From Naegleria gruberi (taxonomy: Eukaryota): a stretch of DNA of 64,000 nucleotides. The position numbers and the translations under genes are program-made. Below are positions 37 through 45,359 of this stretch, in pieces; the first letter of the stretch is position 1, and the number at the start of each line of letters is the position of its first letter. Location: the NCBI GenBank assembly GCA_000004985.1, contig GG738932.1. One strand, 5' to 3'. The notes under the pieces are model-generated. The model was not told the origin of the DNA. It did not search any database and was given only the letters and a program-made list of their open reading frames with translations.

Positions 37-437
37 TTATTTTTTCAAATACTTTTCCACAACTCTCGTTACACTCAATCCAACACAAGCAAGCAAACAA
101 GAATTAGTACAAATCTGGCACAATATAAATCCAGGCAATCTCTTCTCTGGATATCCATAACCATACCAAACTCTTCCAATTGCATACAGTAATCCAACTC
201 CTCCTCCCAAATAATCATTCTCCAACATTCCAGTGCACAACCACAAAGCTCCCAAAAAACTTGCAATATTCTCCACTCCATTCAATTGAACTCGGAGTGC
301 ATTCAAAAATCCTGGAGGACCTTCTGTGAGTGGTGGTTTAACATGAAATTCTTTTCTTGCCCTTCCGACCATGAAAGTTGCTTTCGATTGTGCCAAGATG
401 ACGAGAGATGAAGAGAGAGCAGTGAGTGGGTAATCAC
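37..437 (-). CDS. MAPEG-family microsomal glutathione S-transferase (MGST3-like), ~133 aa
   Basis: Translation contains ...GLLYAIGRVWYGYGYPEKR..., matching the conserved GRVLYAYGY motif of MGST3/MAPEG proteins. Size and hydrophobic helices fit. I place the start at the internal Met (MSLRDYPL..., ATG at 437..435) rather than the ORF-track start at 519, because the 24 N-terminal extra residues are basic and unconserved. Confidence 0.7.
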
Positions 438-538
438 GTAGAGACATTTTTTTTGGTTTTGTACACCTTTGTTGGACCAAAGATACTATCGTAGTATCAA
501 TTAATTGAGTATTTCGCATGAGAGGTATTTGTATTCAA

Positions 539-1147
539 TCAATTGAGAATTTCCTTGATTGAAATGCTAAATCTTGATGGAGGTTTTGAGTAAGAGGAAG
601 ATGTTGTTGTTGTGGAATGGTTAAAGTTGTGACAATTGGCATGTTCTTCAATGGCTGGTGGTGAGGGTATTGTTGTGAGTGTTGATGACTTGCCATTCGT
701 AGATGTGGTACTATCCTGTACTACAGATTCTGTCTTTTTTGATTTTCTTGTTGGAGTTTGTTTCGAAACCTTTCGTCTATGAGTTGAAGACCCTTCCATG
801 TCCATGCCTTTCATTAGTAAAACTCCTTCCATTGGAGTGGTATTTATCTTTTCAGAGTATTGAAAAACAGCAAACATTGAATTGTTGCATGTAGTTTCTA
901 ATACTTTCAAATTGGCATTTCCAATAAATTGGAATGAAGTCTTGTCTTGTTTTCTCTTTCCAATTCTTGTTGGCAGCATGGCAACGTTTGATGATGGAGG
1001 AGACCCTTGGTGACATGCTCTTTTAATCATGTTTTCTTGTGATCTTTCTCCAAATCTTGTTGTTGGCATTTGTTTTTGTTTATTGATTCGAATATCAATA
1101 AAACAGCATCCTTCAAAATCACACACAACATGTGAACAAGATAGCAT
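539..1147 (-). CDS. Low-complexity S/T-rich protein, member A of a 3-gene paralogous family (unknown function)
   Basis: 202-aa ORF. It shares ordered motifs with the ORFs at 1335..2816 and 7360..8112: CDFEGCCF vs FEGCNHF, and NNSMFAVF vs NNAMFGVFKKKP vs NNSIFGVMKKPK. The true start and possible introns are uncertain. Confidence 0.4.
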   Translation of the reverse strand: MLSCSHVVCDFEGCCFIDIRINKQKQMPTTRFGERSQENMIKRACHQGSPPSSNVAMLPTRIGKRKQDKTSFQFIGNANLKVLETTCNNSMFAVFQYSEKINTTPMEGVLLMKGMDMEGSSTHRRKVSKQTPTRKSKKTESVVQDSTTSTNGKSSTLTTIPSPPAIEEHANCHNFNHSTTTTSSSYSKPPSRFSISIKEILN

Positions 1148-1334
1148 TTGGAGAGGAAGCGTTAAAACTTTATGTCCTGTGTGTATTTTCGGTATTCCAC
1201 ATTACAATCCATGCATGCATGCGAGCACAATCTTGGAATAAATTGGTGCGAATTGTTCAAATATGTGAGAATTGAGCGACCTACCTCTGTTGGAAACTCA
1301 ACCCAAACTGAGATTTAGATAACAAGCAGAAACT

Positions 1335-2816
1335 TCATTTGAACAATTCCTTTATTGAAGGAATGATTGTTCTTGGTAATGAATGAGATGCAAGAGAATT
1401 ATTTTTCTTATCTAAATTCTGAACTGGTGTTGGTGTTGGAATTATGGGATGTTTAGATTGAGTCATCAATTCAGAAGATTCAATTGAATTACTATTATTA
1501 TTGGGATATGATACAAGATCTGTTGTTTGGTTGTTATTGACAGTTCCAGTTGTTGAGTCTTGTTTTGCAATTTGCTTTTCAGAAAAAAGCAGATCCGTGG
1601 CTGATGTGAAACTGACCGATCTTGAAATCGTACCATAATTCAGGTTTGCTAAATCTCGTTTTGGTTGACTACCAAAAGAAGGTCCAATAATGGGTTGTAA
1701 AGTTGTGTGACTTGGATCTGCAATTACATGATTCGAAGATGAGAAGTATTGCTGTTGTATACTCTCCTTTGGATTAGTTGTTGATTGGTTTACATTGTGT
1801 GAATTGTGTGAAAGAATGTTGTTAAATCCAATATTGGAAGCAACGGGATAGTTGTTCGACACTATTGGATTTGGAAATGTGCCTTGTTGGGAAATATTAG
1901 CACCAGTGCTAGAGGAATTGGAAGATGGATTATGAATGGGTGATGGAGTGGTGAGAGTTTGCGTTTCAGTTTGTGAATTGCTGCTTGATGCTTGTGGAGT
2001 TTTAAATTGATCACCACCATTATTCGTACTATTCGATGATGATGCTGAACCAGGATTGAAATTGAGCACTGTTTCGTAAGCTTGTTGAGTAGGTTTCTTC
2101 TTGAAAACTCCAAACATTGCATTATTATCAGTCATTGAGAGTAGATCAAAACTCGAAACCTGAACTTGTTTTCCACTCTTTCGTTTTTTAGAATTTTTCT
2201 CCACATGTATTTCCTCATTATCCTGATATTGATCCACAGAAGAAGATGATTGATTATTTGTAATTTTGAAATGATTGCATCCCTCGAAAACTTCCTTCTT
2301 CTTTCTCTTTCTCTTTTCCTTATTAATAACTGCTGTATGAAAAGTTAACGTATTTCCATTATCAACCATTGGAAGAATAGCATGTTGTTGTTGCTGCTGC
2401 TGCTGTTGAAAATGATTGTCAACCAGCACTGTGGTTGTTACTCTCGATTGATTTTTGCTAACCTGTTGTTCATAATTAATGAAATGATGATTCGAATAAT
2501 TTCTAACTTGTTGCTGATCATTCACCACCACAACACTCGCACTATTTATATTACTACTTCCTATTCTCATTTCATTATTCATCGCCACTATCATCCCATT
2601 ATTGTCATCATTCTGAGTCAAGTTCATTTGAGCGGCAACCTCCTTTTTCTTCTTTCTCAAATTCGCTTGTTGATTATTTTGATGCGTTCCTTGATATTGT
2701 TGTTGATGATGCTGATGATGAGAATTGGAATGACCAACATGTTGATTATTTTGATGGCCATCACGTATAGCCTTTGTTTGTTGGTGTAGTAAAGGTGGCG
2801 GGAGTTTTTCTGACAT
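1335..2816 (-). CDS. Poly-Q/H/N low-complexity nuclear-type protein, member B of the paralogous family (unknown function)
   Basis: 493-aa ORF with long Q/H/N runs from CAG/CAA/CAT-rich DNA at 2390..2760. It has a basic KEKRKRKKK tract followed by FEGCNHF, and a C-proximal NNAMFGVFKKKPTQQAYETVLNF shared with the paralogues. Confidence 0.55.
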   Translation of the reverse strand: MSEKLPPPLLHQQTKAIRDGHQNNQHVGHSNSHHQHHQQQYQGTHQNNQQANLRKKKKEVAAQMNLTQNDDNNGMIVAMNNEMRIGSSNINSASVVVVNDQQQVRNYSNHHFINYEQQVSKNQSRVTTTVLVDNHFQQQQQQQQHAILPMVDNGNTLTFHTAVINKEKRKRKKKEVFEGCNHFKITNNQSSSSVDQYQDNEEIHVEKNSKKRKSGKQVQVSSFDLLSMTDNNAMFGVFKKKPTQQAYETVLNFNPGSASSSNSTNNGGDQFKTPQASSSNSQTETQTLTTPSPIHNPSSNSSSTGANISQQGTFPNPIVSNNYPVASNIGFNNILSHNSHNVNQSTTNPKESIQQQYFSSSNHVIADPSHTTLQPIIGPSFGSQPKRDLANLNYGTISRSVSFTSATDLLFSEKQIAKQDSTTGTVNNNQTTDLVSYPNNNSNSIESSELMTQSKHPIIPTPTPVQNLDKKNNSLASHSLPRTIIPSIKELFK

Positions 2817-2859
2817 TTTTTTTGAGAGGCGATTTTTGGAAAGTTTGAAACCCTAAATT

Positions 2860-3000
2860 ATGTTGATGCGGGATTGCTTACGAATATTATTTTTTTAATG
2901 GAAAGAGATGGGATTGTTGATAGTGTTGGATTGGCTCTTTCAATGTGACAAGTGGCGTGAATTGACAGAGTTTCGAATAGATAAACTTTTGAGTAATTGG
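2860..3000. repeat. Copy 1 of a duplicated ~130-bp noncoding element (second copy at 6600..6735)
   Basis: ...gaatattatttttttaatggaaagag...gtgacaagtggcgtgaattgacagagtttcgaatagataaacttttgag... is near-identical to 6620..6735. It lies directly upstream of the start codon at 2816 of the minus-strand gene. Confidence 0.6.
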
Positions 3001-3289
3001 GAAGCATTTAGAGAAGTTTGAATGATTACAAGTTTGTTGACAAACTATTAATTCTCTATAATAATTCACAGTCTTACTGAGAGTGCTCTCAAGTACAATA
3101 TGATGTATTCTATTATTTGAGAAACTTTGATAATTCTCAAACAAATTCATCCTTCACTGAAATGTTTCACCACATTTCGTCTATCATTTAAATATTAAGA
3201 ATGATTTGAAGAGTAGTTCAACAATCGAAAAGTGAAGATTCAAGTGGATTCTAGTTTAGTGCTGAACAACACTAAAATATATTAAATTT

Positions 3290-3470
3290 CACTATTATCA
3301 AATTTATTTCCACAAATATTACTGTTATAATGATGATAAATAACAATGATGATAGTAGTTGTTCCGATGATGGTGTATTACCAACTTGAATTTTTCCAAA
3401 TCATATGTGAAGAATTAAATTCCAAAAATTACTATTATTTAAAATGATGTGGTGAAATTCTTGGGTTTAT
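3290..3470. repeat. Short array of a TGATGA / AAAATTACTA-containing repeat family (larger array at 45360..46250)
   Basis: Units such as aaaaattactattatttaaaatgatgtggtgaaattcttgg recur with variation at 45930..46230. There is no ORF. Confidence 0.4.
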
Positions 3471-3524
3471 AGATGTGAAATTACTCCAAGAATCAACACA
3501 GAGCATTTTCCAATATTTTTTTCT

Positions 3525-3615
3525 AGAAATTGTTCCAATGAAAATTCGAACTTTAAAAATTCTGTTGACTGACCTTCACAATAGGAAGTTCGAATTTTCA
3601 TTGGAACAATTTCTA
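3525..3615. repeat. Perfect 27-bp inverted repeat (hairpin) with 37-nt spacer
   Basis: gaaattgttccaatgaaaattcgaact (3525..3551) and its exact reverse complement agttcgaattttcattggaacaatttc (3589..3615). The spacer itself contains the partial inverted repeat actgacctt/aaggtcagt. Confidence 0.6.
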
Positions 3616-3745
3616 AGGTCAGTTAGCAGTATTTTTAAAATATGATGATGATGATCATCGGGTTACACTTCTTCTCGATCACGATATTATCCACTCTTCT
3701 GTCCAGATAATTACAAATCCACACAACAGAAATAAACTCTGTCTG

Positions 3746-4256
3746 ATGTATATTCCGATTATTGAGTGGTTTCCTTTGGACATGCTTGCCGGATGGAGTG
3801 ATAAACCCTATCTTTATGCATCCCAATTGACAGCCATCATGAGATACACACTTGAAAGAGATTGTCAACCATTGAGTGAAATTTTGATCGAACATTTCAA
3901 TTATTAATCATTCCATCACGAGTTAAAGCAAATCCTTTTGATTTATTTCTTGAAATTGTTTCGAATATTAGAATGGTAAAACTCTTCAATATGCTTCTGA
4001 TAGATTGAAGAAGGACAGGAATATTGCCTTGAAAGCTGTAAAATCCTCAATTGAGGCATTGGAGTATGTTGGAATTTCATTAAGAAATGCTGAATTTATT
4101 TGTTATTGTTTAGAGGAAAGAGCACTTTCTACCAAAACTCAAACTATTCGAATGGATGTTGACAAGTTGTGTGAACCTAGCGACTCTTTATATTGTATAA
4201 TAGTGGCATTTGTTTTGAAAAGTAAAATTTACATTTATGGAAAGTCTTCAAAATAA
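3746..4256 (+). pseudogene. Degenerate truncated copy of the downstream DUF4116 gene (N-terminal plus C-terminal fragments, middle deleted)
   Basis: 3746..3907 encodes MYIPIIEWFPLDMLAGWSDKPYLYASQLTAIMRYTLERDCQPLSEIL*, which parallels residues ~55-100 of the 4300..6450 protein (PILDWFPLQMIG...SQFTAIIKHRIEQ). 3972..4256 in another frame encodes NGKTLQYASDRLKKDRNIALKAVKSSIEALEYVGISLRNAEFICYCLEE..., near-identical at DNA level to 6236..6400, the last repeat and C-terminus of the full gene. A stop lies between the fragments and there is no in-frame ATG. Confidence 0.5.
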
Positions 4257-4299
4257 TTTAAATAGAAATTACTTGACATTCATTAATTTACTATAAAAA

Positions 4300-6450
4300 A
4301 TGATTAGTCAAGTTTCGGCTGTTACGTCTGTACCATTCGAACAGAAGAGTAAAATACCAACACCTAAATACAATTATGTTAATATCATTCTAGACGAAAC
4401 AATTCAATCAGATTTATTAATCAAAAAGTTAAAATACCAAACCACAGAATTACAGCTCTTTCTAATACATTATCCTATTCTCGATTGGTTTCCTCTACAA
4501 ATGATAGGAACAAACACCAAACCTGGCCTTGATCGTTCCCAATTCACAGCCATTATCAAACATAGAATTGAACAGAACCACCAACTTATATCCAACATTA
4601 TTGGTTTGTGTGATTGTGACGACAAGTACAATTCATTCACTTCCATCCTGAAAATGCCAGATTTTAATGTGGATTGTAATTTGGAAGAGTTTGAAGAGCA
4701 AGCTAGAAAGCAACGTGTTAAAATGTTCTTGGCAGGGTTGTTGGAAGATAGGGATATTGCTTGGATAGCACTTGGTAGTAATTTTAAGTTTAGGCATATT
4801 TCGGATAGATTTAAGGAAGATTATCAAGTTGTTTTACAAGCTGTAAAATATGATACTAAAGCTTTTGAATTGGTTTCTGATAGATTTAAAGATGATGAGA
4901 GAATAGTTTTCGAAGCTGTTAGAAACTGTGGCAGCAATCTCAAATTTGCATCTGAAAGATTGAAAGACAATAACCAGATTATTCTAAAAGCCATCAAGAA
5001 GAATACATCAGCAATTATGTATGCCTCAAAGAGATTCAAAGATTACTTTGGCGAATTACTTTCTGATAGTGAGCTACTCCAATTAGAAAGATTTGAAAAA
5101 GATTCGTCTGATTTATTCTTCAACGAAGGGTTTGACAATGAACTGCTCATGTTAGAATTTGTCAAGTTAAATACAAGGTCTCTCAGAAAGGCATCCGATC
5201 GATTGAGGGATAATCAAACAATTGTGTTGGAAGCTATCAGGAGAAATGCCATGTCGTTGTGTTATGCATCTGACAGATTGAGAGATACTGAGATGGTTGT
5301 GATGGAAGCAGTTACACAAGAACCTCAAATGATGAAGTATGCTTCCAATAGATTGAAAGATAATAAGCAGTTTGTGTTGAAGATCATGAAATCATTGGGA
5401 TACTCGTATGATCTTTCTTTGGTTCAGTATTTATCGAAACTATTGCAAGATGATGAGCAAATTATTATAGAAGAAATCAAGAGAGACCAATCACCACTCT
5501 TTTTTGCATCTGAAAGGTTGCAAGACAATGAAGAAATTGTAATGAAAGCAGTCAACCAAAATGGAATGTCACTTTATTGTGCTTCCGAGAGATTGAAGGA
5601 TAATGAAAAGATTGTTTTGGAAGCGGTTCGAAATACTAGTGAAGCCCTTACTTATGCATCCAATAGATTGAAAGATAGTGAACTAGTTCTGATGGCAGCC
5701 ATTTGTCATGGTCGTTTGTGCAAGGCTCTTTCGTATGCTTCTGAAAGATTGCAAGATAACGAATTGATTGTTTTGGAATCTGTCAAGAAGAATGGGTCTA
5801 TGCTTGGATATGCATCTGATCGATTGAAATATCATGAACAAATTGTTTTGGAAGCAATTAAACAGGAACGATCATCAATAGAAAATATCACTTCTGCAAG
5901 ATTGAAAGATACTGAAACGATTATATTGGAATTGGTTAAGGATTCTACCATGAAACATGTACATAATCTGGAAATTGATGAATATGAGTTTCATTCCTCA
6001 GGCAGTGAAGTACGTTCTGATTTATTTAATGAATATTGTTCTGAAAGATTGAAAAACGATTCACAATTCATGTTAAAAGTATTGGCAAGCAAGTGGAGAG
6101 GTGGAATCGCACATGGACTTTCAGATAACAAGCAATTTATGCTTGAGGCAATTAAGCTCAATTGTTGGGCAATTGATTCAGCTTCCGAACAATTAAGAGA
6201 CGATGAAGAGGTTGTAAAGGCAGCTATTTCTCAAAATGGTAAAACTCTTCAATATGTTTCTGATAGATTGAAGAATGACATAACTATAGTCTCAAGTGCA
6301 GTGAAATCCTCAGTTGCCTCCTTAAAGTACATTGGTGAAAAGTTCAGAAATGTTGAATTTATTTGTTATTGCTTGGAGAATCAATTGATTTCTTCCAAAC
6401 CTTCAAATGTTGTTAAGGAAATACCATTCTTTGGAAATTTACATTTCTAA
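4300..6450 (+). CDS. DUF4116-repeat protein (~14 tandem ~36-aa repeats of the type ...IVLEAVKqNgxaLxYASeRLKDNe...)
   Basis: 716-aa intron-less ORF with highly periodic repeats carrying YAS.RLKD and IVLEAV signatures, which I recognise as the DUF4116 repeat family. The ATG at 4300 is preceded by an A/T-rich leader. Confidence 0.75.
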   Translation: MISQVSAVTSVPFEQKSKIPTPKYNYVNIILDETIQSDLLIKKLKYQTTELQLFLIHYPILDWFPLQMIGTNTKPGLDRSQFTAIIKHRIEQNHQLISNIIGLCDCDDKYNSFTSILKMPDFNVDCNLEEFEEQARKQRVKMFLAGLLEDRDIAWIALGSNFKFRHISDRFKEDYQVVLQAVKYDTKAFELVSDRFKDDERIVFEAVRNCGSNLKFASERLKDNNQIILKAIKKNTSAIMYASKRFKDYFGELLSDSELLQLERFEKDSSDLFFNEGFDNELLMLEFVKLNTRSLRKASDRLRDNQTIVLEAIRRNAMSLCYASDRLRDTEMVVMEAVTQEPQMMKYASNRLKDNKQFVLKIMKSLGYSYDLSLVQYLSKLLQDDEQIIIEEIKRDQSPLFFASERLQDNEEIVMKAVNQNGMSLYCASERLKDNEKIVLEAVRNTSEALTYASNRLKDSELVLMAAICHGRLCKALSYASERLQDNELIVLESVKKNGSMLGYASDRLKYHEQIVLEAIKQERSSIENITSARLKDTETIILELVKDSTMKHVHNLEIDEYEFHSSGSEVRSDLFNEYCSERLKNDSQFMLKVLASKWRGGIAHGLSDNKQFMLEAIKLNCWAIDSASEQLRDDEEVVKAAISQNGKTLQYVSDRLKNDITIVSSAVKSSVASLKYIGEKFRNVEFICYCLENQLISSKPSNVVKEIPFFGNLHF

Positions 6451-6599
6451 TCATCCATTAGAAACACATCATCAACAAGAATATTAAGAAACAACAATTA
6501 ATTCCTTATTAAATTATTTGGAATTTCTATTTAAACTTCCCTTTATTCACATGTTATCCCGAATGCCCAAGCTCACATGTTGTTTCCTCCAAGAATGGC

Positions 6600-6735
6600 T
6601 GACACAATCTATTATGCATGTGAGATTGTTGAATATTTTTTTAATGGAAAGAGGAATTGCTGATTGTGTTGGAATACTATGACAAGTGGCGTGAATTGAT
6701 AGTGTTTCGAATAGATAAACTTTTGAATTGGAAAC
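6600..6735. repeat. Copy 2 of the duplicated ~130-bp noncoding element (see 2860..3000)
   Basis: gaatatttttttaatggaaagaggaattgctgattgtgttgg...gacaagtggcgtgaattgatagtgtttcgaatagataaacttttgaattgg. It is in the same orientation as copy 1. Confidence 0.6.
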
Positions 6736-6868
6736 GGTTGAGCTTTTATCAAAGAAAAAGGAATATTTAAAGTGAAAGAAAGCCGGTTAGTTTTTGGGGG
6801 TCGGTTGCCTAGCGAAACTTTTTCATAAAAATCATCTCAATGTGAAGGGAGTGTCCTTATCCACCGCA

Positions 6869-6924
6869 TTTATATTTCACAATTGTTGAATGAGCTCTAT
6901 CCTTTCAACAATTGTGAAATATTA
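6869..6924. repeat. Perfect 19-bp inverted repeat (hairpin) with 18-nt loop
   Basis: atatttcacaattgttgaa ... ttcaacaattgtgaaatat. It lies in the intergenic region downstream of the DUF4116 gene. Confidence 0.5.
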
Positions 6925-7359
6925 GATCACTTTAACAGATCTTGACGAAACTTTGAATTTTTATTCGAAATATTGTTTAAATCTGAAGATGGCAAAATCC
7001 TTGTTGTTTATTTCTCAGAGTTTCTAACAAAATAAATATTGAGGGAAATGTGGTGCGTTGAGAATATGCAAGGAGAGCTTTCGAATATGGTAATTAAGAG
7101 ACCAAAACTTGCTCTTGTTATAATATTGCCAAATTAGAATTTTGGAAAGCATGTCAACACACACATGATATCAAGTAAACAATGCATTATCATATTCTAA
7201 ACCTTTCTAATAATCATTTTGCAACTAAACAAAGAGGAAGGTCTTTCTGAAAATGCAAATTGAAAGATAACAAGGAGACCACTAAAAACGGACTGTGTCC
7301 ACCCTCAAAACAACCTTGTGAGGTAGTTTCCAATAGAGGCACATGTGAAAAAGGTCTAA

Positions 7360-8112
7360 TTATGGCTTTTTTCGTTTCTTCTTGTTTGTTGATTGGATTT
7401 GAGATTCTTGGTGTGGACTCCAAGAACGAGTTGTTGTTGTTGGTGGCGTTTTCACACGTTGATTTGAATTGCTACTAGAAGTATCTGAAAGGTTTAGAAT
7501 AGTTTCGTATGAAGCCATATTCGCATGTTTTGGTTTTTTCATCACTCCAAAAATTGAATTATTTCCTGTATATTCCAATTGAAAATCTCTTGTATTGTTG
7601 ATTAGAGGAGAGCTTGGTTCATTTCGGCTCTTTCTCTTCTTGATGGTATTGTTATTAGAAAGAGGTGTTGAAGAATTATTCGAAAGTAAAGATGTCTTTT
7701 CACTATTTGAATGTATTATTTTCTTTGTGTTTTCCACATGATTGTAATCATGATTCAATAATATTGGCGGCAATTGAGAAGCATGTTTAGAGTTTAGTCT
7801 ATCAATATCTGAAAAGATAACAGACGAAAGTGAAGGAAGGATTGTTCTTGTTGGTGAGTTTCCAATACTTGCTCCATGAATGCTTGTTGGAAGAGTATGT
7901 CCACTCTGAACAGGATTAATTGTTGAAAAGGTTGAAGTACTATTGGAAATGTTATTAGAATCTTTTGGAGGTGATTCAATAATCTTGTAATGTTCCATGA
8001 GAGTTTTCTTCCTTCTGGTTTTCTTGATAGGTTTAATTGCTGGACTCTTCGCCAAATCTTCTGAGTCGGTGACTGAATGTTCTTGATTCTGTTGGAAACT
8101 GGACGAATTCAT
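7360..8112 (-). CDS. S/N/T-rich low-complexity protein, member C of the paralogous family (unknown function)
   Basis: 250-aa ORF with a basic KKTRRKKTLMEHYKII tract (cf. KRKRKKKEVFEGCNHFKIT in member B) and NNSIFGVMKKPKHANMASYETILNLS (cf. NNAMFGVFKKKPTQQAYETVLNF). Confidence 0.5.
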   Translation of the reverse strand: MNSSSFQQNQEHSVTDSEDLAKSPAIKPIKKTRRKKTLMEHYKIIESPPKDSNNISNSTSTFSTINPVQSGHTLPTSIHGASIGNSPTRTILPSLSSVIFSDIDRLNSKHASQLPPILLNHDYNHVENTKKIIHSNSEKTSLLSNNSSTPLSNNNTIKKRKSRNEPSSPLINNTRDFQLEYTGNNSIFGVMKKPKHANMASYETILNLSDTSSSNSNQRVKTPPTTTTRSWSPHQESQIQSTNKKKRKKP

Positions 8113-8752
8113 TCACTTGTGTTTCGAATAGGTTTGAAGATGTTTTTTTCAAAGGTGCCAAGCACACAGTGTTGTGATTTCAATTTTTCATTCGACAAAA
8201 CAAAAACATGAAGGTGTGCAATTGGCCCCTTCTCTTTTAACATAACTGCGATTGATTAAAAAAGGTAATTGCAAATTTGGAGCAACACCATATTAGCTCG
8301 AGCTAGATGATTTTCATGACTTGCTCAAATTTGAGTACTAAGGCCCTCCTGTATGTAGTTATACCTTCTCCATTCAAGAAAGAGATGATGTTCAATATTT
8401 GGAAAGTTTTTGACATTTGGCAGTTGCTTTGTGGAAAGAGGAATAGGATTGTTAGGAATGCTATTCATGGTTGTTTTCATTATTTATCGGTTATATCTTC
8501 CACATTCAGTGTTTATTAACGTTGAATGAGAATGTTGATGTGGTTGTATCAGAATTGATATTCTAAACTGATTACCATCTGTAATATCAATAATTTTGCA
8601 ATAATTTACAAAAGGATGGGAAGAAGAGAATAGATAGTGAGCCACTTCAGCTACGCACCTCCTCAATTCTATTGTTTTTCTATTGATTGCTTTATTCAAT
8701 TGACCAAAAGGAAAAACAGATCACAAAAAAGGCCAATGAACCAATATCGAGA

Positions 8753-11032: not shown

Positions 11033-13192
11033 ATGCCTAACCTTGAGACTCTGAAGGAGACAGCAAGATCGGAGCTTTGCGATATTCTTGATTCGGTTTG
11101 TTATCATCACATTTATTATAATAACACAAGCAATCGAACAATATTTGTTTATCAATCATCTCATCTTCAATTAAATAATATATTATTATTAATTAATTCA
11201 TCAACATTAACAACAAAATAATAGATAAACGGAGACAAGATTCTTGTCCTTGATGAACAATTAATTGGACCTCTTGGATTAGTTGCCCCTCTGGCACTTT
11301 TAAAAGAACTTGGAGTTAAAAAACTATTTAAATTGAATGATAGAACATTTGATACCAATTTTGCAAATATTGTCTATATTGTGAGACCAAAGATGCACTT
11401 GATGAAGTGGGTTGCTAATCAAGTATCCTACTGGGTCAAACAAAAAGAAGATTTAGATCGAATGATGTCGGAAAAGCTGAAGGAAAAGAAGAACACAAAA
11501 AACAAAAAGCAACAACCTGAAGAAACCAATGAAGAAACATATACACCACCAACCAATTTCCACCTCTATTTATTACCTAAAACATCATTAATTTGTGTTG
11601 ATATCTTGAAGGATTTGGGTGTTTATCCACATTTAAGAATTTCCGAATATCCTTTGGATTTAATTGTCTTTGATAATTATTTAATGTCTTTGGAACTTCC
11701 TTCATCATTCAAGGAATGCGAATTGGATGGTGATTTTTCATCACTGTATTATGTAGCACGATCTATTATGAAGTTACAATCCTATTTTGGTTTGATACCA
11801 AATGTTAAATTTATTGGATCGGGTGCAACACATGTCTCTGAAATGATCATGAGAATGAGAAAGGAAGTTGGTTCACAAGCTTTTGCTTCTGTTCCAGAAA
11901 TTAACACATTAATTTTGATTGATAGAAATGTAGATTTAATTACTCCAATGTTAAATCAATTTACTTATGAAGGAATGATTGATGAACTTTTGGGAGGTAT
12001 TACAAATACCTTGTTTACAACTCAACGTGTACCTGAAGCTGCTACTATTGCTAAAAAGATTGCCCTCAATTCTTCTGATAATGTTTTTAATCGTTTGAGA
12101 CATCTCAATCACAATAGAGCTGGTATTGCAATCAATGAAATGGCTATTGAATTTAAATCCAGAGAAGATAAGGCAAGAGAAATCAAAACATCAGATTCTA
12201 AAGTTTCCATTGAAAAGATCAAGGAAGTTACTAAAATGTTACCACAAATTCAAGAAGACAAAAAGTATTTGGAACTTCGTAAGTTTTAAATTTCATGCAA
12301 TTCGTTACTAACACACATCCAAGACACCAAAATGATGCTTGAAATTAGATCAATTATTGGAAAGGTTCCTTTCAGAAGATTAATTCAAACACAGAAGAAT
12401 GTTCTTGATGGTGAGGATGAAAAGGAAATTATCGAATATATTGAAGAAACAATTGACAAGCAATTACCACTTACCAACGTTCTGCGTGTCATTTGTCTCT
12501 ATTCACTAATTAATGGAGGTATTAAGAATAAGGTTTTTGAAAAATTGAGAAGAGAAATTATACAAAGTTATGGACTTCAAGCATTGCCAACTCTCAACAA
12601 TTTGGAAAAGATTGGCATGCTCAGAAAGCAAGACTCCAAGTCTGTCAGTAATTGGAATTTACTGAAAAAGACATTTAATCTTGTAGATGAAGCTGCAATG
12701 GAAAGAACCAACGAGGAAGATGGTCAATATGATCCTCACTTGGTTTACAATGTCTATTGTCCAATAACTGTTGCTCTTGTCGAACATGCCATGACTGAAG
12801 AAAAGGGATGGAGAAGAGTTGAACCTGTTTTGAGTAAGCTTGCTCCAGGCCTTTATGGAGAATTATCTCAAACAGGTTCCCAAGATACTCAACTCGGAAA
12901 GAAGGTTGTCTTGGTTTACTTTATTGGAGGTGTTACTTTTGCTGAAATCAGTGCCATTACCTACTTGAATGAAAGAAGTAACGATTGTGAATACATTATA
13001 GCAACAACCAAGCTCACTAATGGATCCACATTTTTGGAAAATCTTGTTGAGGAAATTCCTGAAGATAGACAATCATTCAAAAAGAAAGCAAGCAGCGATT
13101 CCTATGCCCTTTTCTACGAAGAGCCACCAAAGGAAGGTGCTGATGCTTCATCATCTTCTGGAACAGCCAAAAACGGTCAACAAGATGTGTAA
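11033..13192 (+). CDS. vps33: Vps33 (Sec1/Munc18-family HOPS/CORVET subunit), 3 exons, ~662 aa
   Basis: Exons 11033..11095, 11225..12278 and 12324..13192 are joined in frame. Intron 1 is gtttgt...aatag. Intron 2 is gtaagttttaaatttcatgcaattcgTTACTAACacacatccaag. The product (MPNLETLKETARSELCDILDS|INGDKILVLDEQLIGPLGLVAPLALLKELGV...) aligns along its length to human VPS33A: IDRNVDLITPMLNQFTYEGMIDE vs [23 protein letters not shown], and VVLVYFIGGVTFAEISAITYL...IATTKLTNGSTFLENL vs LIFFLGGVTFAEIAALRFL...IATTKLMNGTSWIEAL. The TTG start at 11333 in the ORF track is an artefact. Confidence 0.8.
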
Positions 13193-13638: not shown

Positions 13639-16600
13639 ATGAAACAACAGCTACACGTTAATGGCCGCTTGCTGATTATTTCAGTTGTGCTGGCATTATT
13701 TCTAGTAATGACAGGTTGTGTTGCAGATATTGTGCAAGTGACACCTCAGAATCCACTGCTTGATATGATTAGTTGGAATGATAAGGATGAAATATGGTTT
13801 GCCCAATCGTGTCCTCTCACTGGATCCAACAGTCGGTAAGTTTCGAATATATTTTCTTTCCTGACTAATGGAAATAGTCTTGGAATTGAAATGAGAAATG
13901 GCATCCTTGCTGCATTCCATGAAATCAACTCTATTGGGGGTGTTTGGGGCTCAAAGAAACTCAAATTGCTCTCACTCGATGATAATTATGATCCAGTGAG
14001 CACTTTACAAAATACAAATTACTTTCTTTACAATATTACTCCACCAAATACTTCACTGAATTATGCAAATGTGTTTTCAAGTGGTAAATATGAAGATAGA
14101 AATGTCAATGATGTGAAAGTTTTTGGATTGTTAGGATATGTCGGCACGCCAACTGTCCAAGCAGTTTATTCTGATGTTGTGGCAAAGAATGTACCACTTG
14201 TAGCTTCTTTTACAGGAGTTGGTTGGTTGAGATATTCTCCATTCTATTCAAATGTCATTAATCTTAGAGCTTCCTATGATGATGAGACAGCTGCCATGAT
14301 TGACTATCTCATTAACGAAAAACTAATTAGAAGAATCTCTGTATTCTACCAAAATGACAGTTTTGGACTTGCTGGATTGAGCGGAGTCCAACGTTCCCTA
14401 GTCAACTATCTCAATATCCCTATTCGTTCCACATCTTACTATACAAGAGGAACACTAAATGTGGAAAATGCATTTCAGGAAATTGGAGCGGGAAAACCAG
14501 CTGCAATTATTTGCATTGGAACTTTTGCTCCCATTGCCAAGTTTATCAAGATGGTAAAAGATTTGGCCTTCAATTCAACTGCCAATCAATACGGTTATGA
14601 GAAACCGAGCGAAATTATTTTCATGACTTTGAGTTTCGTCAGCTCAGGAGCTCTCATTGAAAGATTAAACTCCTTCAGTTTACCTTCGAATAACTATGGC
14701 AATTCGTATTACATTGACAATGTAGTCATCACACAAGTCGTCCCCAGCCCTTTCAATCTCTCAATTCCAATAGTGAGATCCTATCAGAATGCAAGAAGAT
14801 CCTATCTACTAGCCAACGATCCATCCTCTTACAATTCCTTCACTCCCTCCTTTATAGAATTGGAAGGATACATGGCGGGAAGATTGGTTTTTTCGATATT
14901 TCAGAAAATGGTTGGAAATTTAACGAGATCCAACTTTATTGCAACGAATTATTTTGGAGGGAATAGGTTGGGAACTGATATTGGGGATTCGTCATCGACT
15001 GGTGACAGTTCAGGAGGTGTTTCACTTGTGGATGGGATTAGGGTAGGTCCGTATCGTTGGTGTGAAAGTGTCAATGTCATGGATTTGAATTTACCATATG
15101 CGGATAAGATTTCATTGAATGTTTCGGCACTTTCGAATACTACTTGTTCTAATTTTAATTGTAATCAAGGTTTGAAAGTTGTTTACAAAAGTTCAGCTCA
15201 AATTGAAAACTCTAAAATTTCATTTTCTATTTTAGGGAATAGTTTTTCATGGTATGATTACAAGGGAGGTATTTATTGCATTTCAGATCCTTCACTTGTT
15301 AAGAAACCTCTCATTTTCGGTCAATCAATCTATTCGAATAAGGACTATACTGAAGAACTAATGCTGAGAAAAGGAATTTTAATGGCCTTTACCATATATA
15401 ACCAAGGATTGTCAAGTTCTGATTCCAAATTAGAACTTTTAACACAATATCACTCAAATAAGGATGAATTAATTTCGAATACAAAGGAATTCATTGAAAC
15501 TCATGATGCACTTGCTCTGGTTGGCTATTCGACAGATCACTTTTCGTTGGTAGAAAGTAGTGGAAAGATCAATATTGCAACTAATCCACAATTTGCAAAC
15601 ATTTCCTTGATTGGAGGTGCTTCAACTATTAATTCAATGAAATTAAGAAATCCATTCACAAGGAATATCATTCACGCACATTCGTCCATTTTCGAACAAT
15701 TGGCAACGATTGTGGAATATTCAATGAATCAAGAAGCATCTTCAAGGTTTTCAATTATTTACAGTAAGAGAAATGAAGATTCATTTGCAGCTTTTGGATT
15801 ACTCAATCAAATATTGACTGCTTTGGGTTTAGTTTTAGATTCTTCTGCATGTATTGATGGTTCGAATAGTTATTCATATGCCAGTATAGATTCAATTGTT
15901 GATAGTTTGAGATATAATGGTTCTAATCCTCAAGTTGTTATATTTGCATTCCCATCAAATGTCGATGTAGTTTCGTCCTTGATTGGAGCTTTCCAAACTA
16001 CTTATCAGAATTCACCAAAATTTGGTCGAAACTTGGATATTGTTTTGATGAATTCCTTCTTTTCCCTTAATGCAGAATACGAAATGAAAGATTGGCTCGC
16101 TCAAAATTACAAGAGTTTCTTCAAAGTTTCGTTTGTTTCTCATTTAGATTCGGTTTATTCATCCTCACAACTTTCCATCGTCAAATTCATTCAAACCATG
16201 AAGAATTTCTTCCCAAACGATTATTCCAACTCAACTACCCTCTATCACAACAAAGTTTTGGAAGGATTTTATATTGGAAACTTGATTACCTCTATTCTAA
16301 TCAATATTGATTCAGGTTTGACTTCAAAGGAAGTATTGCAAACTATTTATGATGTCAAGAGTTTCATTTCTCAGCAAACGACATATGGTCCCTTCAGTGA
16401 AGATGGTTGCAATGTTGGTATTCGTCAAAATTATGTTTTCACATTCGTTTCGAATAGTTTCTCCAAAGTTTATACGAAAAGTTATGATTCAGGTTGTGGA
16501 TTATTGGCAAGCTCTGTTGAGACAGCCATCAAATCATACATTAACACGCCATTACTATTTGGATATCTAGCTCCCTATAGAAAAATTGGAAATTCTCAAA

Positions 16601-31083: not shown

Positions 31084-32453
31084 TTATTTTGGCTATTTTG
31101 GTCAAATTGAGTTAAAAATATTAAGGATGGTTCAACACATATTTCAATCCAATTGCTGAAAATTATCCAACTTCCATCCTTATTTTTGTAAACTTTATTT
31201 AATGATAAGAAAAGGATGAAGAAGTTTATCATTATCTATGGCAATTCCTTTTATTGATTCTCCGAGAAGGAATATTCCAAAACAACAGCATATCTCAATT
31301 TCATGTATTTTTCAGATTCGAATCTTTGTATACAAAGATTTCATTCCAAATCACCGGTGATGAGATTTTTTCGAACCACTACAGTTTTATTGTAATCACA
31401 GTAGATCAAAACTGTAGATCAAGTTTAGGTGATTGTATAATTTGATCAGAGTCAATTTAGGAAAACTTGTAATATGAATAAGAAGAAATTAAACGAATGG
31501 TGGCGAAACATACTTTTAAGAACCTGTAAGGCCTCCATATGGTTAGATCATCTAACTTGTAGATTTTGCTTCCTGTTGTTTCGAATCGTCCAATGTAATT
31601 CGTTCAGAATAGTCTAAAACAAATTCTAAATTGGTAATATTCCACATCCGAAGATTTTACATAGAATGGAACAATATCACAACAATCAACTCATCTTGAA
31701 GTAATTTACCCTTTTCGATCAATCGTTACATTTTCGAATAGTGCCATTGCTGTTTCTAATAGTTTAATTTCATGTACTTCTATGTATTTTTTAATCGGTC
31801 AAGGAATACATTTCACGATCATCCTCAATCTCCAAATTTCATCAATTCTGTACATTGTCCTTTCCAACAAAGTTTCGAATGGCATTATCGAACGAAAGAA
31901 AAAATTTTGAAATCTCCATTGAAATCCTGAAAGAGAAACTTTCTACATTCGAAAAGTTGCCACCTCACACTTCTATCCTCAAATCATGTATTCAAAATTG
32001 CATCCTTTTCATTAAATTCTAAACCAGACGAAACCATTCCCTCAAATCCTACTCAATTATACAAAACGAAATCGTTTCAGTCAACCAACTCTACTCTCCT
32101 TTTCAAGATCTTTCCAATTCTCCAAAACCAGCATCACAGGTTCATTTCAATTTTGTTCATTTTACAATTTATCAAATTTTCCCAAAAACCTTCCAGTCAG
32201 GCCTCTAAATAGTTGAAAACATTTTTCTGCATCTAGCTGTATCCACTTCCAATCTCGTCCAATCGCTCCTTTTTCATCCAAGAGTCCAAACATTACTGTC
32301 GCACTGGTTTTTTTCGTTACACCGCTTTTTATTTGTACTATGGTGATTCTCGAATATACTAGCTGATTCTCCATAACATTCATGAACAATGACATGAATA
32401 TACGAGCTAGAGTAGTGAGGGAATGGAGGAATGCATAAGAAGACAACAACACC

Positions 32454-45127: not shown

Positions 45128-45359
45128 NNNNNNNNNNNNNNNNNNNNNNNNNNNNNNNNNNNNNNNNNNNNNNNNNNGATCACATCAACTTTTTATGACC
45201 CAGTGAATTTGTCAATTGGGCACAAATTCGTGGAGCTGTCCAAACAGAAACTAAAGAAACAGCAAAGCCTATTCCAGTTGTGTGATCTTTCCACATGATC
45301 TCAGTTCATAATAGACACAAGAAAACACAATGCTAATAATAAAAATATAATTTTATTTA

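What the first reader, a model, noticed from the sequence alone, without database searches (positions are those of the whole stretch)
539..8112. Three dispersed paralogues of an unrecognised low-complexity protein family sharing short conserved motifs
The ORFs at 539..1147, 1335..2816 and 7360..8112, all on the minus strand, are dominated by Q/N/H/S/T runs but share collinear islands. These are a basic K/R tract followed by FEGC(N/C)xF (or MEHYKII), then 40-90 aa later (S/D)Fx(L/F)...NN(A/S)(M/I)F(G/A)V(F/M)KK.P...AYETVLNF / SYETILNL. That pattern argues for a real, recently expanded, probably lineage-specific family, possibly nuclear regulators given the basic tracts, and not for chance ORFs in AT-rich DNA. 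I do not recognise it as any named domain.
Basis: seen in the sequence. Interest (0 to 1): 0.5.

Follow-up and report, generated by a model that had tools for sequence, protein, structure and literature searches.

The report
Small Naegleria-only disordered protein family
Three neighbouring genes of the amoeba Naegleria gruberi encode related, largely unstructured proteins that share one short conserved motif and match no known domain; the family is real but is an ordinary lineage-restricted "orphan" family of unknown function.

Summary
The window is a Naegleria gruberi scaffold end. All three ORFs are already annotated as "predicted protein": XP_002669098 (ORF1, from Met40), XP_002669099 (ORF2) and XP_002669100 (ORF3).

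The shared core, L-x-x-T-x-N-N-x-x-F-G-V ... Y-E-T-x-L-N ... K-T-P, is real. In leave-one-out HMM searches the omitted ORF was always the best other hit among 955 six-frame segments (E 7e-5 to 5e-10). Codon-position identity runs 2>1>3, so conservation acts on the protein.

A full HMMER scan of 1.84 billion representatives found only these genes, a near-identical strain copy, and one 186-aa metagenomic relative. Pfam, NCBIfam, PDB, viral contigs and JGI metagenomes gave nothing.

AlphaFold predicts disorder (mean pLDDT 42-44), apart from a short helix at the tail.

In a related strain (about 3-4% DNA divergence) ORF3 carries 4 synonymous and 0 nonsynonymous changes. ORF1 carries a 1-nt deletion.

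The genes are clustered, not dispersed, and the duplication is old, not recent. A nuclear role rests only on NLS-like tracts in ORF2 and ORF3 and is untested.

The parts
1335..2816 (-). ORF2, 493 aa = XP_002669099.1 / EFC36355 (NAEGRDRAFT_54441), 'predicted protein'. It is the longest family member and has the core, the C-terminal tail and two NLS-like basic runs.
   Evidence: Exact match in the protein collection. AlphaFold mean pLDDT 42.3, with 421 of 493 residues below 50. Basic runs at residues 53-59 and 166-175.
7360..8112 (-). ORF3, 250 aa = XP_002669100.1 / EFC36356 (NAEGRDRAFT_54443). It has the core and three NLS-like basic runs but no terminal tail; it ends in NKKKRKKP.
   Evidence: AlphaFold mean pLDDT 43.9 with no secondary structure. 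Against strain contig L004: 4 synonymous, 0 nonsynonymous changes and no indels over 753 nt.
539..1147 (-). ORF1, 202 aa from the first ATG. It is annotated from Met40 (window 539..1030) as XP_002669098.1 / EFC36354 (NAEGRDRAFT_75983), 163 aa. The core is degenerate and the tail is intact. It may be decaying.
   Evidence: Against strain contig L001: 4 nonsynonymous and 4 synonymous changes, two 3-nt indels, and a 1-nt deletion at window 908.
1983..2195 (-). Core block of ORF2 (aa 208-278): NSKKRKS...SSFDLLSMTDNNAMFGVFKKKPTQQAYETVLNF...FKTPQASS
   Evidence: Alignments A2 and A5. Leave-one-out HMM E=1.5e-5.
7432..7647 (-). Core block of ORF3 (aa 156-227): TIKKRKS...RDFQLEYTGNNSIFGVMKKPKHANMASYETILNL...VKTPPTTT
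   Evidence: Leave-one-out HMM E=4.8e-10.
740..967 (-). Core block of ORF1 (aa 61-136): RIGKRKQ...LKVLETTCNNSMFAVFQYSEKINTTPMEGVLLM...KQTPTRKS
   Evidence: Leave-one-out HMM E=7.4e-5.
1338..1385 (-). C-terminal tail of ORF2: HSLPRTIIPSIKELFK-stop. The final residues are predicted as a short helix.
   Evidence: Motif unique to the ends of ORF1 and ORF2. AlphaFold helix at 488-492; pLDDT 74-80 over the last 20 residues.
542..586 (-). C-terminal tail of ORF1: KPPSRFSISIKEILN-stop
7804..7860 (-). Internal segment of ORF3 (NSPTRTILPSLSSVIFSDI) that resembles ORF2's tail (LPRTIIPSI) but lies N-terminal to the core, so it is not collinear. Relationship uncertain.
   Evidence: blastn: 20 nt at 95% identity, E=2.6e-4 for the pair. 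See also repeat D6.
2873..2992 (-). Element X, just upstream of ORF2. It translates to ...HATCHIERANPTLSTIPSLSIKKIIF... This may be the relic of another family member's tail module; the evidence is suggestive only.
   Evidence: 81% identical to 6634-6726 over 105 nt. Weak match to the C-terminal module of ORF1: tblastn E=0.14; HMM E=0.94, rank 4 of 955.
6619..6726 (-). Element X', downstream of ORF3. It translates to ...HATCHSIPTQSAIPLSIKKIFNN... It is the second copy of X and is likewise a possible tail relic.
   Evidence: Best non-training hit of the C-terminal-module HMM, but E=0.11, not significant. tblastn with the ORF1 C-terminus E=0.077.

Best explanation
These are three linked paralogues of a small protein family. 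The family is known only from Naegleria gruberi-like amoebae and one uncultured relative.

The proteins are almost wholly intrinsically disordered and of low complexity. What selection preserves is a set of short linear elements:
- a core of about 45 residues with three hydrophobic patches (F-x-L-L/L-E; N-N-x-M/I-F-G-V-F/M; Y-E-T-V/I-L-N-F/L), preceded by a KKRK tract and followed by K-T-P;
- in three of the four known members, a helical hydrophobic tail at the extreme C-terminus (S-I/L-K/H-E-L/I-L/F).

Most likely mechanism (inferred, not shown): the conserved elements are docking motifs that fold only when they bind a structured partner. ORF2 and ORF3, which carry several classical-NLS-like basic runs, would do this in the nucleus as adaptors or cofactors.

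The cluster arose by old local duplication. ORF3 is under purifying selection. ORF1 is the most degenerate copy and may be losing function.

Shown: homology, protein-level conservation, restricted distribution, predicted disorder. Inferred: docking function and nuclear location.
For: - Organism and annotation.
- Core homology: BLASTP and leave-one-out HMMs, E 7e-5 to 5e-10 against a next-best of 0.26-2.
- Independent homologue P0004/P0005, from a metagenome contig with no DNA similarity to the window. It carries both the core (38.7 bits, E=7.7e-5 against 1.84e9 proteins) and the terminal tail.
- Protein-level conservation: codon-position identity runs 2>1>3.
- Coding-like codon usage in frame.
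- ORF3: 4 synonymous and 0 nonsynonymous changes and no indels against strain contig L004, while its 3' flank carries many substitutions and indels. P=0.002.
- Disorder: AlphaFold mean pLDDT 43.9 (ORF3) and 42.3 (ORF2). The only confident local elements in ORF2 are a helix at 43-64 and the tail helix at 488-492.
- The tail motif is unique to ORF1 and ORF2 in the six-frame window. The P0005 tail ranks ORF1 and ORF2 second and third of 421 ORF ends.
- NLS-like runs: 5 in 743 aa of ORF2+ORF3 against 0.49 per 1000 aa in controls.
- No known domain: Pfam at E<=1, NCBIfam, PDB sequences.
Against: - There are no expression or localisation data. Paper and supplement searches for the accessions found nothing.
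- NLS-like tracts are absent from ORF1 and P0005, so nuclear targeting is not a family-wide feature.
- The family has only four or five known sequences, so covariation and conservation statistics are thin.
- No partner is known. 'Docking motif' is the generic reading of conserved islands in a disordered protein.
- The 1-nt deletion in the strain copy of ORF1 means at least one member may be dispensable.
- I did not check whether N. fowleri and N. lovaniensis proteomes are in the searched library, so 'restricted to N. gruberi-like lineages' could partly reflect rapid divergence or sampling.
Confidence: 0.6

Rival explanations
1. Only ORF2 and ORF3 are functional genes. ORF1 is a truncated, decaying tandem duplicate (a pseudogene or nearly so) that still has an open frame in the reference strain.
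For: - ORF1's core has lost the most conserved residues: G->A, KK->QY, YET->MEG.
- It lacks the long N-terminal region.
- Its stop lies 19 nt upstream of the first ATG of the MAPEG ORF and 91 nt upstream of the annotated MAPEG start.
- The related strain has a 1-nt deletion at window 908 plus two 3-nt indels, with 4 nonsynonymous and 4 synonymous changes. dN/dS is about 0.28, not significantly below 1 (P=0.076).
- Its codon-usage score is the lowest of the three, 0.16 bits per codon.
Against: - The 220-codon open frame is far longer than expected by chance at 35% GC.
- The C-terminal tail is intact.
- In the strain with the deletion, an alternative ATG keeps the core and tail in one 158-aa ORF, P0003.
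- The deletion comes from a single short metagenome contig and could be an assembly error.
- The environmental homologue P0005 is equally short, 186 aa.
Confidence: 0.3
2. The family is real, but its members are not nuclear docking proteins. They would be fast-evolving disordered proteins with another role, for example cytoplasmic scaffolds, phase-separating proteins or substrates of proline-directed kinases. On this reading the basic runs are incidental.
For: - Two of the four members have no strong basic run.
- A T-P site follows the core in three members, and ORF1's TPTRK fits the S/T-P-x-K/R CDK consensus recalled from general knowledge.
- Q/N/S/T-rich composition.
Against: - ORF2 and ORF3 carry 2 and 3 runs of at least 5 K/R in 6 residues. 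One is an SV40-like KKKRKK. This is about 14-fold above the window's other proteins.
- There is no signal peptide or hydrophobic segment. The fraction of large hydrophobic residues (F, W, Y, I, L, V, M) is only 22-25%.
Confidence: 0.25
3. The shared islands are chance similarities between low-complexity ORFs in AT-rich DNA, or they reflect a repeated DNA element and not protein homology.
For: - The FEGC island is indeed at chance level, p=0.2.
- The X/X' matches to the tail module are not significant, E 0.1-0.9.
Against: - Leave-one-out HMM E-values.
- An independent environmental homologue with both core and tail.
- Identity at codon position 3 is at random level while position 2 is conserved. 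This is the opposite of what a DNA repeat would give.
- All substitutions in ORF3 between strains are synonymous.
Confidence: 0.02
4. The genes derive from a virus or mobile element integrated in the Naegleria genome. The neighbouring DUF4116-repeat gene belongs to a family that, from memory, is common in giant viruses.
For: - The cluster is interleaved with a duplicated DUF4116 gene and flanked by 105-nt direct repeats X/X'.
Against: - No relative was found in 2.9 million viral contigs.
- GC content and codon usage match the host genes.
- The surrounding genes are ordinary cellular genes: MAPEG, purple acid phosphatase, Sec1, capping enzyme, Snf7.
Confidence: 0.03

Closest known systems
Taxonomically restricted ('orphan') intrinsically disordered protein families of protists, such as the species-specific genes of unknown function reported for the Naegleria pangenome (PMC9928731)
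   Same: - No homologue outside a narrow lineage.
- Low-complexity Q/N/S/T-rich sequence.
- Conservation confined to short linear motifs.
- Local tandem duplication.
- Annotated only as 'predicted protein'.
- The pangenome paper reports that the Naegleria core genome is only 25% of the pangenome and that many genes are of unknown function.
   Different: I found nothing specific: no paper mentions these accessions or motifs. These genes stand out from a generic orphan only in having a definable core-plus-tail signature and one environmental relative.
C/EBP-type bZIP basic region (PDB 1nwq, 8k8c)
   Same: The weak best PDB sequence match aligns RIKKRKS...LKVLETTSNN with the C/EBP-alpha basic region [29 protein letters not shown].
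   Different: - E=0.37-0.41 in a search of 177,635 sequences, which is chance level.
- No Pfam bZIP hit at E<=1.
- AlphaFold predicts no helix in this region.
C2H2 zinc-finger knuckle (C-x-F-E-G-C-x-x-F, as in TFIIIA/GLI/KLF-type fingers; recalled from general knowledge)
   Same: ORF1 reads C-D-F-E-G-C-C-F and ORF2 reads V-F-E-G-C-N-H-F.
   Different: - ORF2 lacks the first cysteine.
- ORF1 has no histidine pair downstream; the next His is 32 residues after the second Cys.
- The motif lies upstream of ORF1's annotated start.
- No Pfam zf-C2H2 hit.
- The island is not significant.
PP2C phosphatase motif 1 (..FGVFDGHGG..)
   Same: The string N-Q-A-M-F-G-V-F also occurs in metagenomic sequences that continue with DGHGG, which I recognise from general knowledge as the PP2C motif (L005, L009, L024).
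   Different: The family continues with K-K/R-K, not D-G-H-G-G. There is no Pfam PP2C hit and no folded domain is predicted.

Membership tests
Any Pfam-A / NCBIfam family | Profile match at or near the curated threshold | tested here: not met
   No Pfam families at E<=1 for any of the three ORFs. In NCBIfam there is only a meaningless 11-bit hit to GltC for ORF1.
Any protein with a solved structure | Sequence-profile match to a PDB chain | tested here: not met
   The best hits of the 4-sequence core profile have E=0.11-1.6 (gamma-tubulin, C/EBP-alpha, WDR48), all at chance level. No fold search was run because both models are low-confidence (mean pLDDT about 42-44).
C2H2 zinc finger | C-x2-4-C ... 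H-x3-5-H ligand set | tested here: not met
   Read directly from the sequence. ORF1 has C-x4-C but no His pair. ORF2 lacks the first Cys. ORF3 has neither.
bZIP transcription factor | Basic region followed by a heptad leucine-zipper helix | tested here: not met
   PDB hit at E=0.37 only. No Pfam bZIP hit. No helix predicted after the KKRK tract.
PCNA-interacting PIP box (Q-x-x-[ILM]-x-x-[FY]-[FY]; consensus recalled from general knowledge) | Gln at position 1 and two aromatic residues at positions 7-8 | tested here: not met
   The core reads N-N-A-M-F-G-V-F, N-N-S-I-F-G-V-M and N-N-S-M-F-A-V-F. Position 1 is Asn, position 7 is Val, and ORF3 has Met at position 8.
Intrinsically disordered protein | No stable predicted fold; low-complexity, polar-rich composition | tested here: met
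   pLDDT is below 50 for 203 of 250 residues (ORF3) and 421 of 493 (ORF2). Q/N/H/S/T make up 38-48% and large hydrophobic residues (F, W, Y, I, L, V, M) 22-25%. This is prediction only.
Proteins with a classical monopartite NLS | K-K/R-x-K/R cluster; nuclear import shown experimentally | tested here: inconclusive
   The pattern is present in ORF2 (KRKRKKK, KKRK, RKKKK) and ORF3 (KKTRRKK, KKRKSR, KKKRKK). It is absent from ORF1 and P0005. Import cannot be tested here.
Taxonomically restricted gene family | No detectable homologue outside a narrow clade in an exhaustive search | tested here: met
   - HMMER profile against 1.84e9 representatives gave 4 hits, all N. gruberi, a near-identical strain, or one unassigned metagenome relative.
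- No relatives were found in viral contigs or JGI metagenomes.
- Caveat: I did not verify that other Naegleria proteomes are in the library.

The most novel reading that the evidence does not exclude
The core and the helical C-terminal tail are the two docking sites of a Naegleria-specific family of nuclear adaptors. These adaptors would recruit a conserved chromatin or transcription factor, for example during the amoeba-to-flagellate switch. ORF3 would be a rearranged member: it has a tail-like segment N-terminal to the core. X/X' would be relics of further copies, giving a small, actively remodelled regulatory gene cluster.
Probability: 0.1. Interest if true: 0.45.

Novelty: new member of a known kind. 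Interest (0 to 1): 0.22.

Why it matters
The practical value is small. It links three adjacent "predicted proteins" of the N. gruberi reference genome into one family with a definable signature (core plus C-terminal tail). It gives a profile for finding relatives in other heteroloboseans, and it flags ORF1 as a possibly decaying copy.

Conserved linear motifs in otherwise disordered, lineage-specific proteins are often the handles of lineage-specific regulation, so the family is a reasonable candidate for interaction screening. Nothing here is surprising to a specialist, because orphan disordered families are common in Naegleria and other protists.

Tried and rejected
1. The search for homologous proteins with full-length ORF2 returned only itself; the candidate list was saturated at 8000. 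With the core alignment it returned nothing, not even the query genes, so I treat that negative as uninformative. With P0005 it returned only its own cluster.

2. The look-up of encoding contigs for ORF2 found no record.

3. A JGI metagenome scan with the core alignment gave 119 pattern matches, none confirmed. A second scan with the DNA pattern for N-[NQHK]-[AS]-M-F-G-V-F gave 45 loci. None has the downstream Y-E-x-x-L, and several are PP2C genes.

4. The viral contig scan found nothing.

5. Zinc-finger, bZIP, PIP-box and PP2C readings were all rejected (see the membership test).

6. The FEGC/MEHYKII island was rejected as unsupported.

7. Expression evidence: searches for the accessions in papers and in the supplements of three Naegleria 'omics papers found nothing. 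Searches for the motif strings and for the metagenome project id also found nothing.

8. No fold search was run. Both AlphaFold models are disordered, so any match would be meaningless.

9. X/X' as relics of a fourth copy: HMM E=0.11 and 0.94, tblastn E=0.08-0.14. This is kept only as a lead.

10. L002 turned out to be a palindromic chimera of L003, so it is not an extra homologue.

Full report
**What the window is.** Only positions 1-46342 are sequence. A 50-N gap lies at 45128-45177 and the rest is N padding. GC content is 31-38%.

Exact look-ups identify the organism as Naegleria gruberi:
- ORF2 (1335..2816, minus) is XP_002669099.1 / EFC36355.
- ORF3 (7360..8112, minus) is XP_002669100.1 / EFC36356.
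- ORF1 is annotated from its 40th codon (539..1030) as XP_002669098.1 / EFC36354.
- The MAPEG gene next to ORF1 (37..447) is EFC36353.

All are called "predicted protein". The rest of the window holds ordinary cellular genes: a purple acid phosphatase, Sec1, a receptor-type cyclase, CEMIP/G8, the mRNA capping enzyme, Snf7, a kinase and an LRR protein.

**Checking the observation.**
- Pairwise BLASTP finds one shared region: ORF2-ORF3 E=2e-6, ORF1-ORF3 E=1e-4, ORF1-ORF2 E=0.014.
- I built a 78-column core alignment and ran leave-one-out HMMs against all 955 stop-to-stop segments of the six-frame translation.
- Each omitted ORF was the best non-training hit (E 7.4e-5, 1.5e-5, 4.8e-10). The next best hits had E 0.26-2.
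- There is no fourth core in the window.

Within the two ungapped blocks of the core, nucleotide identity is highest at codon position 2 and at random level at position 3. For ORF2-ORF3 the counts are 14/22, 19/22 and 8/22. The conservation therefore acts on the protein, not on a DNA repeat, and the duplication is old. blastn finds only 20-32 nt patches between the paralogues.

- The FEGC / MEHYKII island does not exceed chance. The local alignment scores 28 against a shuffle mean of 24.5 +/- 4.1, p=0.2.
- In ORF1 that island lies upstream of the annotated start.
- The spacing to the core is 77, 54 and 145 aa, not 40-90.
- The genes are not dispersed. ORF2 and ORF1 are tandem, 187 nt apart, and ORF3 lies 4.5 kb away on the same strand.
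The pattern [ST][ILMV][KHRQ]E[LI][LFI][NKQ]-stop occurs nowhere else in the six-frame translation.

**Relatives elsewhere.** A full HMMER scan of 1.84 billion representative proteins with the core profile returned four proteins: ORF3, ORF2, P0003 and P0004.

P0003 comes from a 923-nt metagenome contig, L001. L001 is 96.9% identical to window 443-1367 and is therefore a related N. gruberi-like strain.

P0004 and its longer cluster-mate P0005 (186 aa) come from contigs with no DNA similarity to the window and 34-35% GC. P0005 carries both FTSNQAMFGVFRKSRKVQLQSYEKCLDF and the terminal RVSMLSLHELLN-stop. Its tail ranks ORF1 and ORF2 second and third among 421 ORF ends. An independent organism therefore keeps the same two elements in the same order, which is the strongest evidence that this is a real family.

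Other searches found nothing: Pfam, NCBIfam, PDB sequences, viral contigs and JGI metagenomes. The word-index protein search was uninformative.

**Selection.** The same metagenome also yielded contig L004, which covers ORF3.
- ORF3: over 753 nt there are four substitutions, all synonymous, and no indels. Its 3' flank carries many substitutions and indels. With 21.7% synonymous sites, four of four synonymous has P=0.002 under neutrality.
- ORF1: against L001 there are 4 nonsynonymous and 4 synonymous changes, two 3-nt indels, and a 1-nt deletion at window 908, just upstream of the core. dN/dS is about 0.28, P=0.076.
- In that strain an alternative ATG in another frame still yields a 158-aa ORF with core and tail (P0003). 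The deletion is therefore suggestive of decay, not proof of it.
- Codon-usage log-odds are positive in frame for all three ORFs (0.16-0.24 bits per codon). They are negative for the small ORFs between them.

**Structure.** AlphaFold2 with the 4-sequence alignments gives a mean pLDDT of 43.9 for ORF3, with no secondary structure. For ORF2 the mean is 42.3. The only confident pieces in ORF2 are a helix at residues 43-64 and the last ~20 residues (pLDDT 74-80), with a short helix at 488-492, which is the tail. The core reaches only about 50-55. I ran no fold search because matches to such models are meaningless.

**How it most likely works.** What is shown is a disordered protein whose only conserved parts are the core and the tail.
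- The core has three hydrophobic patches, is preceded by KKRK and is followed by K-T-P.
- The tail is helical, with hydrophobic residues at positions 1, 4 and 5 (I-K-E-L-F, I-K-E-I-L, L-H-E-L-L).

The generic and most probable reading is that these are docking motifs that fold on a partner. ORF2 and ORF3 have 2 and 3 runs of at least 5 K/R in 6 residues, one of them KKKRKK. The window's 20 other proteins average 0.49 such runs per 1000 aa. Nuclear import of those two is therefore plausible. ORF1 and P0005 have none, so nuclear location is not a family-wide feature. All of this paragraph beyond the sequence features is inference.

**Comparison with known families.** Nothing known fits.
- C/EBP basic region: the match is at chance level (E=0.37).
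- C2H2 zinc finger: the 'FEGC' knuckle lacks its ligands.
- PIP box: the required Gln and aromatic residues are missing.
- PP2C: M-F-G-V-F also occurs in PP2C motif 1, but there it continues with D-G-H-G-G.

The honest classification is a lineage-restricted disordered orphan family. Such families are common in Naegleria, where the genus core genome is only 25% of the pangenome and many genes are of unknown function (PMC9928731).

**A lead not proven.** A 105-nt repeat occurs at X (2888-2992) and X' (6634-6726), 81% identical overall with a 47-nt stretch at 96%. Both copies sit on the family's strand. X lies just upstream of ORF2 and X' lies about 630 nt downstream of ORF3.
- They translate to ...HATCH...IPSLSIKKIIF / ...HATCHSIPTQSAIPLSIKKIF. 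This resembles ORF1's ...HANCH...SISIKEILN and P0005's ...LHESCGFVIPTQ...
- The scores are not significant: tblastn E 0.08-0.24, HMM E 0.11 and 0.94.
- ORF3 also has an internal PTRTILPSL segment similar to ORF2's tail (LPRTIIPSI). The DNA match is 20 nt at 95%, E=2.6e-4, but the segment lies N-terminal to the core.
- Together these hints suggest past rearrangement and loss of further copies around a duplicated DUF4116 gene. They do not establish it.

**Verdict.** The core observation is real, and the family is genuine, lineage-restricted and without a named domain. It is not recent and not dispersed. The nuclear-regulator idea is plausible for two members but untested. Interest is low.

Noticed in passing
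window 4300-6450 (+) and 3715-4256 (+): A 716-aa ORF made of 12 DUF4116 repeats (Pfam E=3.6e-109) lies between ORF2 and ORF3. Its exact product is not in the protein collection, and the GenBank accessions of ORF2 and ORF3 are consecutive, so it may be unannotated in the reference record. A degenerate, internally deleted partial copy lies just upstream: 3972-4115 matches 6235-6378 at 77%, 3715-3775 matches 4432-4494, and 4005-4256 has a Pfam DUF4116 hit.
   Followed up: partly
window-wide, e.g. 8121-8131(-), 2970-2980(-), 6704-6714(-), 16447-16457(-), 1087-1094(-), 4145-4152(+), 31578-31882(-): The 8-mer TATTCGAA occurs 28 times against 4-5 expected from order-2/3 Markov models. CTATTCGAAAC with at most 1 mismatch occurs 16 times (4 exact), 15 of them on the minus strand. 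A sense-oriented copy lies 10, 155 and 56 nt upstream of the starts of ORF3, ORF2 and annotated ORF1, and 148 nt upstream of the DUF4116 gene. Eight copies lie inside the cyclase gene, 6 of them antisense. It could be a promoter-proximal element or a genome-wide k-mer bias. One paper search combining this string with promoter terms found nothing relevant.
   Followed up: partly
window 1148-1367 and 8113-8338 compared with L001 and L004: The 5' flanks of ORF1 (220 nt) and ORF3 (226 nt) are 100% identical between the reference and the metagenome strain. The 3' flank of ORF3 and the leader of the MAPEG gene carry many substitutions and indels.
   Followed up: no
window 448-519 (-): The first 24 codons of the 160-aa MAPEG ORF are probably not coding. 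The related strain has a 2-nt deletion, a 1-nt insertion and many substitutions there, and GenBank starts the protein at Met25 (window 37..447).
   Followed up: yes
window 3524-3553 / 3586-3615: A perfect 30-nt inverted repeat with a 32-nt spacer lies in the ORF2-DUF4116 intergenic region. The arms contain TTCGAA.
   Followed up: no
window 2888-2992 and 6634-6726: A 105-nt direct repeat (81% identity, with a 47-nt stretch at 96%) brackets the DUF4116 gene pair. It may mark a segmental insertion or duplication, or it may be the relic of a family tail module.
   Followed up: partly
L002 vs L003: Metagenome contig L002 (599 nt) is a palindromic chimera. Its first 177 nt are the reverse complement of the 3' flank of L003, so the 133-aa product P0004 is a truncated call of the 186-aa P0005.
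   Followed up: yes
window 11333-12289 and 12332-13192 (+): A Sec1-family gene is split into two ORFs 42 nt apart, covering Pfam profile positions 38-323 and 330-574. This is presumably a short intron.
   Followed up: no
window 46343-64000 and 45128-45177: The last 17.6 kb of the window are N padding, so the window sits at a scaffold end. There is also a 50-N assembly gap. Chance expectations that tools derive by shuffling the whole 64-kb source are therefore somewhat too low.
   Followed up: yes
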